Assembly: GCF_003334255.1 (NCBI RefSeq)
Contig: NZ_QOWU01000074.1
DNA from: Escherichia coli
GTDB lineage: Bacteria > Pseudomonadota > Gammaproteobacteria > Enterobacterales > Enterobacteriaceae
Strand: one strand, 5' to 3'
Length of the DNA stretch: 18,419 bases
This document shows, piece after piece, positions 13,314 through 16,925 of the stretch (position 1 is the stretch's first letter; the number at the start of each line of letters is the position of its first letter). The notes under the pieces are model-generated. The model was not told the origin of the DNA and ran no database searches. It was given only the letters and a program-made list of their open reading frames with translations. The position numbers and the translations under genes are program-made.

Positions 13314-13709
13314 TCAGCGATAATTCACAATCACTTCATTCCGTTGTACCTTTAGCGGTGGAATTAACCGCCCACCGCCAGGCACTTCCCAGATAAAGCG
13401 CAACGGTTCTGCTGCCGCTATACCGGAAAAGGCCACGGTGGTTCCGCTCTGCCCCTCTAATTCGACACAACGAGATTGCGAACACAAGCGAACCCGCAGT
13501 CCTGCAGGTGTCGGGCCGATAAGCTGATAACGCCACGCCACCAGCGTCATCAATCCTGAAGCAGGTTGTCGAGTAGAAAGAGGCGCTGACGACATCGACT
13601 CACCGCGATGATTTAGCGTAATTCCGACACTACTTGCCTGCCACATCCCCTCCCCGGCGGCTTGCACTAGCAGCGGAAACAATAATATTGCTAATAAGGT
13701 TCTCATCAT
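13314..13709 (-). CDS. flhE: Flagellar protein FlhE
   Basis: 130-131 aa (start at either of two adjacent ATGs, 13709 or 13706); signal-peptide-like N-terminus MRTLLAILLFPLLVQAAG; start overlaps the flhA stop (ATGATGA). Confidence 0.9.
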   Translation of the reverse strand: MMRTLLAILLFPLLVQAAGEGMWQASSVGITLNHRGESMSSAPLSTRQPASGLMTLVAWRYQLIGPTPAGLRVRLCSQSRCVELEGQSGTTVAFSGIAAAEPLRFIWEVPGGGRLIPPLKVQRNEVIVNYR

Positions 13710-15784
13710 TTACCGCCAATTGTCGCCGTCATGCGGATATGTCGGTTATCAGATAGTTCCAGATTCGACAGCACCACTAACTGCGGCAAGCTGCGGCGCA
13801 GAAAGCGAGACAATAATGGTCGCAGCGCGTGGTTCACCAACAATACTGGCGGCGCACCCAACATCTCCTGACGGGATAGCGCTTCCTGAGTTTGCGCCAG
13901 TAAACGATCCGCCAGCCCTGGCTCCAGTCCGCCCCCGCCCTGCAGCGCCTGTAGTAACAAACGTTCCAGCGGTGTATCGAGGCCAATAACATGGACTTCA
14001 TCTTTGCCAGGAAACCACTGCTGGGTAATCGCCCGTCCCAACGCCACGCGCACGACGGCGGTTAATTCATGTGGATCGCTTTGGATGGGCGCATGTTCCG
14101 CCAGCGTTTCGAGAATGGTGCGCATATCGCGAATCGGTACTTTTTCATCGAGGAGATTTTGCAGCACTTTATGCAGTGTGGTGAGCGTGACGACGCCAGG
14201 AACGAGATCTTCCGTCAGCTTTGGCATCTCCTGGGCGACGCGATCCAGCAGCTGTTGCGCCTCCTGACGACCAAACAGCTCTGCGGCATGCTGGCTAATG
14301 AGGTGGTTAAGATGCGTTGCTACCACCGTGCTAGCCTCAACCACGGTGTACCCCTGAATCTGCGCCTGTTCTTTTAGCGCACTTTCAATCCAGATAGCAT
14401 TCAGGCCAAATGCCGGATCGATGGTCGCCTCACCAGGTAACGTCCCGGCAGCGGTTCCAGGGTTAATCGCCAACCAGCGCCCCGGATAAGCATCACCACT
14501 GCCTATCTCCACGCCTTTCATCAAAATGCGATAGCGGGCAGGTTGCAGATCCATATTGTCGCGAATGTGCACCACCGGCGGCAAGAAGCCCATTTCCTGA
14601 GCAAATTTCTTACGAATACTACGAATACGGCCCAGCAACTCGCCATCTTGTTGGAAATCAACCATCGGGATCAGTCGATAACCCACTTCCATTCCCAGAG
14701 AATCTTCCAGTTGTACATCGTTCCACGTCGCTTCGACAACGGTATTATTCTCTGCCATTTTTACCGGTTTGGGTTCGGCAGGCGCTTTTTGTTCGCGTCC
14801 GCGTATCCACCAGGCCAGCCCCAGCAATCCGGCAGTGAACAGCAAAAATACCAGGTTCGGCATTCCAGGCACCAGGCCGAGTAAACCGAGCACGGCGGCG
14901 CTTAACAACATAACGCTTGGGTTACTGAAAAGCTGATTCACCATCTGCTCGCCAACATCCTGATCGGTGCTGACACGCGTAACGATGACCCCCGCGGCGG
15001 TAGAAATCACCAGCGCCGGAATTTGTGCCACCAGACCGTCGCCAATGGTCAATAGCGTATAACTTTCCGCCGCGTGTCCCATGCTCATGCCATGTTGCAG
15101 CACGCCGACCAGCAACCCGCCGACAACGTTAATGACCATGATGAGGATCCCGGCGATGGCATCGCCGCGAACAAACTTACTTGCCCCGTCCATTGAGCCG
15201 TAAAAATCGGCTTCCTGAGTGACTTCGGAGCGGCGTTTTTTCGCCTCATCTTCACCAATCAATCCGGCGTTAAGGTCGGCGTCAATCGCCATCTGCTTAC
15301 CCGGCATACCATCGAGAACAAAGCGCGCACCCACTTCTGCGATACGCCCGGCACCTTTGGTAATGACCATAAAGTTGATGATCACGAGAATGACAAACAC
15401 CACGATACCGATAGCGAAATTGCCACCAACGAGGAAGTGACCGAACGCTTCGACCACCTTCCCTGCCGCCGCTGCGCCGGTATGCCCTTCCATCAAAATG
15501 ATACGGGTTGAAGCCACGTTAAGTGCCAGACGCAACAGCGTGGTAAACAACAGAATGGTCGGAAACGCAGCAAACTCAAGCGTGCGCTGGGTAAACATCG
15601 CCACCAGCAACACCATGATCGACAAGGCAATATTGAAGGTAAACAACAGGTCGAGTATGAATGCGGGCAGTGGCAGCACCATCATCGACAAGATCAACAG
15701 GATCAAAATCGGTCCGGCAAGGATCTGCCATTGTGTCGATTTCAGGTTTGCGGGCAGGCGCAGCATCGCGGCCAGATTACTCAT
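13706..15784 (-). CDS. flhA: Flagellar export apparatus protein FlhA
   Basis: 692 aa from ATG at 15784 (MSNLAAMLRLPANLKSTQWQILAGPILILL…); the ORF-track extension to 15859 is rejected. Confidence 0.95.
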   Translation of the reverse strand: MSNLAAMLRLPANLKSTQWQILAGPILILLILSMMVLPLPAFILDLLFTFNIALSIMVLLVAMFTQRTLEFAAFPTILLFTTLLRLALNVASTRIILMEGHTGAAAAGKVVEAFGHFLVGGNFAIGIVVFVILVIINFMVITKGAGRIAEVGARFVLDGMPGKQMAIDADLNAGLIGEDEAKKRRSEVTQEADFYGSMDGASKFVRGDAIAGILIMVINVVGGLLVGVLQHGMSMGHAAESYTLLTIGDGLVAQIPALVISTAAGVIVTRVSTDQDVGEQMVNQLFSNPSVMLLSAAVLGLLGLVPGMPNLVFLLFTAGLLGLAWWIRGREQKAPAEPKPVKMAENNTVVEATWNDVQLEDSLGMEVGYRLIPMVDFQQDGELLGRIRSIRKKFAQEMGFLPPVVHIRDNMDLQPARYRILMKGVEIGSGDAYPGRWLAINPGTAAGTLPGEATIDPAFGLNAIWIESALKEQAQIQGYTVVEASTVVATHLNHLISQHAAELFGRQEAQQLLDRVAQEMPKLTEDLVPGVVTLTTLHKVLQNLLDEKVPIRDMRTILETLAEHAPIQSDPHELTAVVRVALGRAITQQWFPGKDEVHVIGLDTPLERLLLQALQGGGGLEPGLADRLLAQTQEALSRQEMLGAPPVLLVNHALRPLLSRFLRRSLPQLVVLSNLELSDNRHIRMTATIGGK

Positions 15785-16925
15785 GGGACGGTTTCTCGTT
15801 AATAAAATCCAGGGCTTCCGGCACCGGAAGATGAATAGGTTGTACAGGGCGCTGCCCACCAGCCAGACGCCAGCGTTTCAGTTGCCAGACCCAAGCCAGC
15901 ACTTCCGCCACCGCGGCGTACAGTTGACCCGGGATTTGTTGACCAATCTCCGCATGTCGATACAACGCTCGCGCCAGCGGCGGCGCTTCAAGCGTCGGGA
16001 CGTTATTTTCAGCGCCAATTTCACGAATGCGCAGCGCGACCAGCCCTGCACCTTTAGCGACCACTTTCGGTGCGCTCATTTTGTTTTCGTCATACTGCAA
16101 CGCTACCGAATAGTGGGTCGGGTTATTGACAATGACATCCGCTTTCGGCACATCGGCCATCATCCGCCGCCGCGCCGCAGCTCGCTGCATCTGACGAATT
16201 CGCCCTTTGACATGGGGGTCGCCTTCGCTTTGTTTGAACTCATCACGAATATCCTGCCGCGACATACGCAGCTTTTTCAGGTGGCTGAAGATTTGGAAAA
16301 TGACGTCAAATCCCACCATTGGAATGACACCAAGCACCACCAGCAGTGCGCATAGCCCTACCAAATCCATCGCATTACCCATGGCGGTAATCGGAGACTG
16401 GGCCATTAAGCGCATCATCTGCGGCCAGTGATGCCAGAGAAAAAACCCCGTCACGCTACCAACCAGGATGGTTTTCAAAATTGCCTTAAGCAACTCCGCG
16501 CCAGTCTGAGCCGAGAACATCCGTTTAATGCCCGGTAGCGGGTTGAGTTTGGAAAACTTCGGCTGCAAGGATTTGCCGCTAAATACCAGCCCTCCCAGCA
16601 TGACCGGAGAAATGAGCGCCACCAGCACCACGCCGCTAATCAGCGGCAGCAGCGCCAGCATGGCTTCTCTGATCAACAGAATAATCTGCCCGAGGATCAG
16701 ATTCGGGTCATTGATAATACTGTGATCAAAATGCAGCCCAGCGGAGAGCATGCCCGACAATCGACGGGCCAGCGACACACCGCCAAACCAGATAACACTA
16801 ACGCCCACCAGCAAAATCAGCAGTGAGGTCAGTTCACGGGAACGCGGGATTTGCCCCTCTTCCCGCGCTTTTTCTAGTCGGTGAGGTGTGGGGGCTTCTG
16901 TTTTGTCGTCGCTCTCGTCAGACAC
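15777..16925 (-). CDS. flhB: Flagellar export apparatus protein FlhB
   Basis: 382 aa, MSDESDDKTEAPTPHRLEKAREEGQIPRSRELTSLL…; contains NPTH (…VIVNNPTHYSVALQ…), the autocleavage motif; 3' end overlaps the flhA start by 8 nt. Confidence 0.95.
   Translation of the reverse strand: MSDESDDKTEAPTPHRLEKAREEGQIPRSRELTSLLILLVGVSVIWFGGVSLARRLSGMLSAGLHFDHSIINDPNLILGQIILLIREAMLALLPLISGVVLVALISPVMLGGLVFSGKSLQPKFSKLNPLPGIKRMFSAQTGAELLKAILKTILVGSVTGFFLWHHWPQMMRLMAQSPITAMGNAMDLVGLCALLVVLGVIPMVGFDVIFQIFSHLKKLRMSRQDIRDEFKQSEGDPHVKGRIRQMQRAAARRRMMADVPKADVIVNNPTHYSVALQYDENKMSAPKVVAKGAGLVALRIREIGAENNVPTLEAPPLARALYRHAEIGQQIPGQLYAAVAEVLAWVWQLKRWRLAGGQRPVQPIHLPVPEALDFINEKPSHE

What the first reader, a model, noticed from the sequence alone, without database searches (positions are those of the whole stretch)
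13700..15790. Overlapping start/stop codons across flhB-flhA-flhE
The flhB stop lies 8 nt inside flhA, and the flhA TGA overlaps tandem ATG codons of flhE (ATGATGA). This indicates translational coupling of the export-gate components and is consistent with the known flhBAE operon; not novel.
Basis: seen in the sequence. Interest (0 to 1): 0.1.

Follow-up and report, generated by a model that had tools for sequence, protein, structure and literature searches.

The report
Overlapping gene junctions in flhBAE operon
The three genes of the E. coli flagellar operon flhB-flhA-flhE overlap by a few bases at both junctions, an evolutionarily conserved but common and already known arrangement that probably helps link their translation.

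Summary
On the minus strand, flhB (16925-15777) ends in a TAA that lies inside flhA codons 2-3 (ATGAGTAA, 8-nt overlap, 15784-15777). The flhA TGA (13708-13706) overlaps two in-frame flhE ATGs at 13709 and 13706 (ATGATGA). Curated HMMs and RefSeq annotation confirm the gene identities.

Two refinements. The tandem ATG is an allele-specific by-product of a TAA-to-TGA change in the flhA stop: K-12 and at least 51% of complete E. coli genomes have TAATG with a single ATG. The conserved, annotated flhE start is therefore the second ATG (1-nt overlap). Also, FlhE is a periplasmic protein, not an export-gate component.

Across 80 Enterobacterales species loci, the flhB/flhA junction is an 8-nt overlap in 75 and a 1-nt overlap in 5, and it is never a gap. 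The synonymous T that creates the flhB stop is the most conserved of 242 four-fold degenerate sites in flhA. The flhE start always lies within -4 to +12 nt of the flhA stop.

The junctions are therefore under selection and fall in the known -8/-4/-1 classes linked to translational coupling. Coupling itself was not tested here. No conserved RNA structure masks either start. The 1:9 FlhB:FlhA stoichiometry means re-initiation alone cannot set FlhA output. Ordinary and already known; low interest.

The parts
15777..16925 (-). flhB coding sequence (GTG start, 382 aa, TAA stop at 15779-15777)
   Evidence: ORF list and translation. TIGR00328 FlhB scores 469 bits against a cut-off of 349. RefSeq annotation of the matching genome.
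13706..15784 (-). flhA coding sequence (ATG 15784, 692 aa, TGA stop at 13708-13706, followed by a second in-frame TGA)
   Evidence: Translation. TIGR01398 FlhA scores 948 bits against a cut-off of 772. RefSeq annotation. ATG1 is invariant across the Enterobacterales loci examined, while Met7 is not conserved.
13314..13709 (-). flhE coding sequence. The conserved, annotated start is ATG2 at 13706 (130 aa). An allele-specific upstream in-frame ATG1 at 13709 would give 131 aa.
   Evidence: Translation. NF047946 FlhE scores 213 bits against a cut-off of 150. PGAP starts the gene at ATG2. K-12 has only ATG2.
15777..15784 (-). Junction 1: ATGAGTAA, where the flhA start and the flhB stop overlap by 8 nt (the -8 class)
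   Evidence: Sequence. The same geometry occurs in 75 of 80 Enterobacterales junctions, with a 1-nt overlap in the other 5. The synonymous T ranks 1 of 242 four-fold sites.
13703..13709 (-). Junction 2: ATGATGA, where the flhA TGA overlaps flhE ATG1 by 4 nt and ATG2 by 1 nt. The second TGA is an in-frame back-up stop for flhA.
   Evidence: Sequence. Junction classes in 75 loci with flhE: -1 in 43, tandem -4/-1 in 11, -4 only in 9, gaps of +1 to +12 in 12.
15792..15797 (-). Weak Shine-Dalgarno-like GAGAAA inside the flhB tail, upstream of the flhA ATG
   Evidence: Duplex with the 16S 3' end is -3.0 kcal/mol, against a median of -5.4 in other species, where the motif is AAGGA or GGAGAG.
13713..13717 (-). 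Shine-Dalgarno-like GGCGG in the Gly-Gly codons of the FlhA C-terminus, 6 nt before flhE ATG2 and 3 nt before ATG1
   Evidence: Duplex is -6.1 kcal/mol in the window and -4.8 in K-12, against a median of -8.4 in other species. GGAGG is present in 32 of 75 loci.
13659..13706 (-). Inferred FlhE Sec signal peptide MRTLLAILLFPLLVQA, with cleavage inferred before AGEG
   Evidence: The N-terminal pattern is conserved across species. FlhE is described as a Sec-translocated periplasmic protein (PMC11247099). The cleavage site is inferred and was not tested.

Best explanation
These are the two intercistronic junctions of the well-known E. coli flagellar class 2 operon flhB-flhA-flhE. The flhB stop (TAA) sits in codons 2-3 of flhA (-8 spacing). 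The flhA stop shares its last base with the conserved flhE start codon (-1 spacing). In this allele the TGA version of the flhA stop also creates an extra in-frame ATG at -4. Shown here: both junction geometries are maintained by purifying selection across Enterobacterales. Inferred: a ribosome finishing the upstream gene terminates on top of the next start codon and contributes to initiation there, by termination-reinitiation or local hand-over of ribosomes. This ties expression of the downstream genes to translation of the upstream ones. The weak flhA Shine-Dalgarno sequence in Escherichia makes such a contribution plausible. Because the gate needs about nine FlhA per FlhB, coupling is probably partial and supplemented by independent initiation. 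Either flhE ATG would yield the same mature periplasmic protein once the signal peptide is removed.
For: Gene identities: NCBIfam equivalogs above cut-off and RefSeq annotation in three E. coli genomes. Junction sequences. Conservation of the flhB/flhA junction: 75 of 80 Enterobacterales junctions have the 8-nt overlap, 5 have a 1-nt overlap, and none has a gap. The synonymous T needed for the flhB TAA is T in 97% of loci where codon 2 is Ala, rank 1 of 242 four-fold sites, and stays T when the amino acid changes. Conservation of the flhA/flhE junction: the flhE start lies within -4 to +12 nt of the flhA stop in all 75 loci with flhE, and 63 of them overlap. Published context: -4, -1 and -8 are the three enriched spacing classes and are associated with coupling (PMC12548453; PMC10666635). 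Four of five native E. coli 4-nt-overlap pairs tested were coupled (PMC6728339). Short-distance pairs are 4.5-fold enriched for complex subunits. Another export-apparatus gene pair, sctS-sctT, has been shown experimentally to be coupled (bioRxiv 10.64898/2026.02.19.706803). SD strength: the flhA SD is weak at -3.0 kcal/mol.
Against: No direct measurement exists for this operon in the held literature: none of the papers listed combines the gene names with 'translational coupling', and one search found no relevant ribosome-profiling study. The assembled gate has 1 FlhB to 9 FlhA (abstract of PMC5916509), whereas re-initiation gives at most one FlhA per FlhB. One of the five E. coli overlap pairs tested by Huber et al. 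(bioBF) was not coupled. The flhA SD of -3.0 kcal/mol falls short of the -3.5 kcal/mol criterion used by Huber et al. for an SD, and removing the SD reduced re-initiation in 4 of their 5 E. coli pairs. Most other species keep a good SD before both downstream genes, which is equally compatible with independent initiation.
Confidence: 0.7

Rival explanations
1. The overlaps are real and conserved, but the downstream genes are translated essentially by independent de novo initiation at Shine-Dalgarno sequences embedded in the upstream gene. On this view the tight spacing reflects compaction and conservation of an SD-plus-start module, not ribosome hand-over.
For: Most species have a good SD before flhA (median -5.4 kcal/mol) and before flhE (median -8.4; GGAGG in 32 of 75 loci). 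The 1:9 FlhB:FlhA stoichiometry requires more FlhA initiations than FlhB terminations. The bioBF pair shows that an overlap can coexist with de novo initiation.
Against: The E. coli flhA SD is weak at -3.0 kcal/mol, yet FlhA must be made in the larger amount. The exact position of the flhB stop is under synonymous-site selection, which an SD-only model does not require. Spacing never exceeds +12 nt in any species.
Confidence: 0.22
2. Coupling works by RNA unfolding. [quoted passage not shown]
For: There is precedent in a homologous export-apparatus operon. In the window's minimum-free-energy fold of the flhA/flhE junction, the GGCGG SD is paired.
Against: The folds of the -99 to +30 regions are not more stable than shuffled controls: z = +0.47 for the flhA start and -1.33 for the flhE start, with 19 of 200 shuffles folding as well. 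The alignment of 36 species shows only a 6-pair hairpin about 35 nt upstream of the flhA AUG, which does not cover the SD or AUG. The alignment of 37 species shows no consensus pairs at the flhE start.
Confidence: 0.05
3. The overlaps are artefacts of start-codon assignment, for example if flhA really starts at Met7 (18 nt downstream), in which case there is no overlap.
For: An in-frame ATG exists at codon 7 of flhA.
Against: ATG1 is invariant across the Enterobacterales loci examined, and residues 2-4 (Ala/Ser-Asn-Leu) are conserved. Met7 is replaced by Leu, Lys or other residues outside Enterobacteriaceae. No SD precedes Met7. For flhE, the -1 ATG is the first in-frame start in most species and the only one near the junction in K-12. 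PGAP assigns the same starts.
Confidence: 0.02

Closest known systems
flhBAE operon of E. coli K-12 and Salmonella enterica (flagellar class 2 operon)
   Same: Same genes, order, strand and neighbours (cheZ upstream, yecT/argS downstream). Same 8-nt ATGAGTAA flhB/flhA overlap in K-12. Same conserved flhE start overlapping the flhA stop by 1 nt.
   Different: The window carries the TGA allele of the flhA stop (GGT AAA TGA TGA) rather than the K-12 TAA allele (GGC AAA TAA TGA). This creates an additional in-frame ATG 3 nt upstream. The exact window-type 34-mer is in 1,076 of 5,426 complete genomes, including O157:H7; the K-12 type is in 2,784.
Short-overlap (-8, -4, -1 nt) unidirectional gene pairs coupled by termination-reinitiation (Huber et al. 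2019, 2023; 2025 J Bacteriol review)
   Same: Both junctions have exactly these spacings. flhB and flhA encode subunits of one membrane complex, the class in which such overlaps are enriched.
   Different: Coupling has not been measured for these pairs. The flhA SD is weaker than the criterion used in those studies. Subunit stoichiometry is 1:9, not near-equimolar.
sctS-sctT translational coupling in the Salmonella SPI-1 type III secretion export apparatus (bioRxiv 10.64898/2026.02.19.706803)
   Same: Homologous machinery (the export apparatus SctRSTUV corresponds to FliPQR/FlhB/FlhA). Adjacent genes have overlapping or abutting stop and start codons, and gene order matters for assembly.
   Different: That mechanism relies on a stem-loop that hides the SD, and no such conserved structure was found here. 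The preprint did not examine the sctU-sctV (flhB-flhA) junction.
Translational coupling in the adjacent chemotaxis operon (cheR-cheB, cheB-cheY, cheY-cheZ; Lovdok et al. 2009, PMC2716512)
   Same: Neighbouring motility genes in the same chromosomal region whose coupled translation was shown experimentally and argued to buffer expression noise.
   Different: Those pairs are separated by short gaps (cheB-cheY +14 nt, cheY-cheZ +10 nt in this window), not by overlaps.

Membership tests
flhBAE flagellar operon | Encodes an FlhB orthologue | tested here: met
   TIGR00328 scores 469 bits against a cut-off of 349. RefSeq annotates flhB.
flhBAE flagellar operon | Encodes an FlhA orthologue | tested here: met
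   TIGR01398 scores 948 bits against a cut-off of 772. RefSeq annotates flhA.
flhBAE flagellar operon | Encodes an FlhE orthologue immediately after flhA | tested here: met
   NF047946 scores 213 bits against a cut-off of 150. Gene order flhB-flhA-flhE on one strand, downstream of cheZ, matching the conserved order described in PMC11247099.
flhBAE flagellar operon | Co-transcription from an FlhDC-dependent class 2 promoter upstream of flhB | not testable with these tools
   The scan found no sigma-70 consensus site, and terminator-like hits were no more frequent than in shuffled sequence (4 found against 4.7 expected), so the scan gave no evidence of an internal promoter or terminator. Transcription itself cannot be assessed from sequence.
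Termination-reinitiation (TeRe) coupled gene pair | Co-directional genes with stop/start spacing between -8 and +10 nt | tested here: met
   Spacing is -8 for flhB/flhA and -1 (also -4) for flhA/flhE. The criterion is from PMC10666635.
Termination-reinitiation (TeRe) coupled gene pair | SD motif for the downstream gene inside the 3' end of the upstream gene | tested here: inconclusive
   For flhE, GGCGG gives -6.1 kcal/mol, which passes. For flhA, GAGAAA gives -3.0 kcal/mol, which does not reach the -3.5 criterion quoted in PMC6728339. Huber et al. found that SD dependence varies from gene pair to gene pair.
Termination-reinitiation (TeRe) coupled gene pair | Downstream translation depends on ribosomes reaching the upstream stop codon | not testable with these tools
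   This needs premature-stop reporter constructs or Ribo-seq. No such data for flhBAE were found in the held literature.
RNA-unfolding coupled gene pair | Stable, conserved secondary structure occluding the downstream SD or start codon | tested here: not met
   Fold z-scores are +0.47 and -1.33. RNAalifold finds no pairs over either start in 36 or 37 species.

The most novel reading that the evidence does not exclude
In Escherichia, Salmonella and Citrobacter the flhA Shine-Dalgarno sequence has eroded to -3.0 kcal/mol while the -8 overlap is strictly retained. FlhA synthesis may therefore depend largely on ribosomes delivered by flhB translation, even though the gate needs about 9 FlhA per FlhB. 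That would imply either large overproduction and turnover of FlhB or an unusually efficient, non-stoichiometric coupling mode. Separately, the TAA-to-TGA flhA stop allele carried by about 20% of E. coli, including O157:H7, converts the flhE junction from -1 to a -4/-1 tandem start and might change FlhE dosage.
Probability: 0.1. Interest if true: 0.3.

Novelty: already known. Interest (0 to 1): 0.07.

Why it matters
It matters little beyond confirming annotation. The junctions are a textbook-style example of short start/stop overlaps in an operon that encodes parts of one machine. Three modest points may be useful. (i) The conserved flhE start is the ATG that shares one base with the flhA stop, and the extra ATG is an allele-specific by-product. 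(ii) The position of the flhB stop inside flhA is under strong synonymous-site selection across Enterobacterales. (iii) The 1:9 FlhB:FlhA stoichiometry makes this a convenient natural case for asking how overlapping junctions can deliver unequal outputs.

Tried and rejected
(1) Primary literature. Minamino 1994 (PMC197220), Li 2014 (PMC4006352), Schmidt 2016 (PMC4888949), Stafford and Hughes 2007 (PMC2528295), Lee and Harshey 2012 (PMC3331934) and Lee 2015 (PMC4355100) are not held. I could therefore obtain no published statement on the junctions and no synthesis rates. (2) The kasugamycin translatome supplement lists flhA and flhE but not flhB in the stored text, and the passages carry no column headers, so it was not interpretable. 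(3) A search for ribosome-profiling papers that mention flhA and flhB returned only a Campylobacter sRNA study. (4) The RNA-unfolding model was tested by single-sequence folds and alignment folds and was not supported. (5) The alternative flhA starts were both rejected: the upstream GTG at 15859, which gives a 717-aa ORF, and the downstream Met7. ATG1 is invariant, Met7 is not conserved, and the FlhA profile and PGAP agree with ATG1. (6) The promoter/terminator consensus scan was uninformative: 0 promoter-like sites, and terminator-like sites at or below the shuffle expectation. (7) I first took the window to be identical to strain G1/2. It is not: it differs at both ends and at a few SNPs, so the torZ 'internal stop' flag in that record does not apply to the window.
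Full report
WHAT IS THERE. The reported interval lies in three co-directional genes on the minus strand of the window:
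- an ORF at 16925-15777 (GTG start, 382 aa);
- an ORF ending at 13706 whose conserved start is the ATG at 15784 (692 aa);
- an ORF at 13709/13706-13314 (131 or 130 aa).
Curated NCBIfam equivalog models identify them as FlhB (TIGR00328, 469 bits, cut-off 349), FlhA (TIGR01398, 948 bits, cut-off 772) and FlhE (NF047946, 213 bits, cut-off 150). The stretch 13200-17000 matches E. coli strain G1/2 at essentially 100% (one mismatch) and most other complete E. coli genomes at 95-99%. RefSeq annotates the order argS, yecV-like ORF, yecT, flhE, flhA, flhB, cheZ, cheY, cheB.

THE OBSERVATION. Read on the minus strand, junction 1 is ...AAC GAG AAA CCG TCC CAT GAG TAA in the flhB frame and ATG AGT AAT CTG in the flhA frame. 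The flhA ATG is at 15784-15782 and the flhB TAA at 15779-15777, an 8-nt overlap ATGAGTAA. Junction 2 is ...ATT GGC GGT AAA TGA TGA in the flhA frame and A ATG ATG AGA ACC in the flhE frame. The flhA TGA is at 13708-13706, flhE ATG1 at 13709-13707 (4-nt overlap) and ATG2 at 13706-13704 (1-nt overlap). PGAP annotates the 8-nt overlap and starts flhE at ATG2, giving a 1-nt overlap, in three different E. coli genomes.

THE TANDEM ATG IS ALLELE-SPECIFIC. A K-12 MG1655 primer printed in PMC4476827, the K-12 MC4100 record (L003) and strain EC17 (L002) all read GGC AAA TAA TGA GA. There the flhA stop is TAA and only one ATG is present. The upstream ATG appears automatically when the stop is TGA after a codon ending in A (AAA-TGA-TG). 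Among 5,426 complete E. coli genomes, the window-type 34-mer is exact in 1,076, including O157:H7. The K-12-type 34-mer is exact in 2,784. The remainder carry further SNPs. Across species, the -1 start is the commonest form: 43 of 75 loci, plus 11 with a tandem -4/-1 start. ATG2 is thus the conserved start. The GGCGG SD-like motif lies 6 nt before ATG2 but only 3 nt before ATG1. FlhE is a Sec-exported periplasmic protein (PMC11247099) with a conserved signal-peptide pattern MR...VQA/AGEG. Either start would therefore give the same mature protein; this last step is an inference.

IS IT MORE THAN CHANCE? Short overlaps are common. In E. coli, 820 unidirectional gene pairs lie at -8 to +10 nt and 1,630 at more than +20 nt, and -4, -1 and -8 are the three enriched overlap classes (PMC10666635; PMC12548453). 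Within this window, cmoA/cmoB also overlap by 4 nt. Finding two such junctions in a three-gene operon is therefore not surprising.

Their conservation, however, is far beyond chance. I fetched 80 FlhA loci, one per species, spanning Enterobacterales at 80-99% FlhA identity; one is truncated upstream of flhA, so 79 loci plus the window could be scored for junction 1.
- The flhB/flhA junction is ATGNNTAA in 75 of the 80 junctions: 71 directly, plus 4 Pantoea loci where my alignment slipped by one codon. It is a 1-nt overlap in 5 and never a gap.
- The overlap needs a T at the synonymous third position of flhA codon 2. That site is T in 70 of 72 Ala codons, the most conserved of 242 four-fold degenerate sites in flhA (median 57.5%, 95th percentile 85%). 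Four-fold sites overall are only 45% identical to the window.
- The T also persists where the amino acid changes (AGT, AAT, GAT).
- For flhA/flhE, all 75 loci with flhE place the start within -4 to +12 nt of the flhA stop, and 63 of them overlap.

START-CODON ALTERNATIVES. The in-frame GTG at 15859 (717-aa ORF) lies inside flhB, and PGAP does not use it. The downstream Met7 would remove the overlap, but it is replaced by Leu, Lys or other residues outside Enterobacteriaceae. ATG1 is invariant in all sequences examined. The overlaps therefore stand.

MECHANISM. Two models of coupling are current: RNA unfolding, and re-initiation or scanning by the terminating ribosome (PMC12548453).

I tested the RNA-unfolding model. 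The -99 to +30 regions fold no better than shuffled controls (z = +0.47 for the flhA start; z = -1.33 for the flhE start, with 19 of 200 shuffles as stable). RNAalifold on 36 and 37 species finds only a small hairpin about 35 nt upstream of the flhA AUG, in the conserved LPVPEALDF codons, and no pairs at all at the flhE start. This differs from the stem-loop mechanism shown for sctS-sctT in the homologous injectisome operon.

The SD before flhA is weak in Escherichia, Salmonella and Citrobacter at -3.0 kcal/mol. The median in the other species is -5.4, and cheY in this window scores -7.8. The flhE SD is intermediate at -6.1, against a median of -8.4.

Conserved overlaps, a weak flhA SD and the absence of a masking structure together favour a contribution from termination-reinitiation or local ribosome hand-over. 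This is an inference, because no experimental test on flhBAE was found. The export gate contains one FlhB (SctU) and nine FlhA (SctV) (PMC5916509 abstract). One-for-one re-initiation therefore cannot by itself supply FlhA, so coupling is probably partial and independent initiation must contribute, or FlhB is made in excess.

COMPARISON AND NOVELTY. This is the known flhBAE operon, with the same junctions as K-12 apart from the stop-codon allele. It is a typical member of the short-overlap class of gene pairs. Nothing here departs from known biology. The added value is the correction about the flhE start, the quantified conservation, and the stoichiometry caveat.

SIDE OBSERVATIONS. These are listed separately. 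The most notable is that the last 75 bases of the window (18345-18419) are the end of an IS186/IS421 element inserted in cheB. None of the 5,426 complete E. coli genomes has that junction.

Noticed in passing
window 18345-18419 (junction at about 18344/18345, inside cheB): The window leaves cheB and runs into the terminal 75 nt of an IS186/IS421 (IS4-family) element, after a ...CCATGCCCC target. The 75-mer is multi-copy (median 3 and up to 22 places per genome) and sits next to an 'IS4-like element IS421 family transposase' between nupC and pdeA in another strain. No complete E. coli genome of 5,426 has this cheB-IS junction. The source strain therefore probably has a disrupted cheB, with possible polar effects on cheY and cheZ.
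   Followed up: partly
window 1-2945: A prophage end abuts a DUF72 (yecE-like) gene: DUF4222 gene, small ORF, excisionase, and tyrosine integrase at 880-2193 (+). In the G1/2 annotation the integrase CDS overlaps the DUF72 CDS by 19 nt. The first ~100 bases show no recognisable similarity to the otherwise near-identical strain G1/2, and scattered substitutions continue to about base 330, indicating a mosaic prophage.
   Followed up: partly
window 5310-7739 (-): torZ is an intact 809-aa ORF in the window, although the near-identical G1/2 record flags torZ as a pseudogene with an internal stop. The two sequences differ at only 2 positions in this interval, based on the 500-bp bins.
   Followed up: partly
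window 12569-12613 (-): A 14-codon ORF between argS and yecT is annotated 'hypothetical protein' in strain G1/2 and 'protein YecV' in K-12 MC4100.
   Followed up: no
L002 (strain EC17) 1458-1511, compared with window 12528-13313: yecT and the yecV ORF are absent between argS and flhE in strain EC17, where argS ends about 50 nt from the flhE stop. This intergenic segment is therefore variable among E. coli. The yecT product also gives a weak, below-cut-off hit to the UmoC flagellar biogenesis regulator family.
   Followed up: no
window 13703-13708 (-), and K-12 L003 around 3517-3522: In both E. coli alleles the flhA stop is followed directly by a second in-frame TGA (TGA-TGA or TAA-TGA). This is a by-product of flhE starting ATG-AGA. 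Most other genera have ATG-CGN and therefore no tandem stop.
   Followed up: no
window 15792-15800 and 13713-13717 (-), compared with L006-L083: Both internal Shine-Dalgarno motifs are degraded in Escherichia relative to most Enterobacterales: flhA GAGAAACC against GAGAAGGA or GGAGAGA, and flhE GGCGG against GGAGG. The start/stop overlaps are nonetheless retained.
   Followed up: partly
L074, L075, L077, L078, L079 (Photorhabdus): The Photorhabdus loci have flhB-flhA with the 8-nt overlap but no flhE after flhA. This agrees with the patchy distribution of flhE described in PMC11247099.
   Followed up: no
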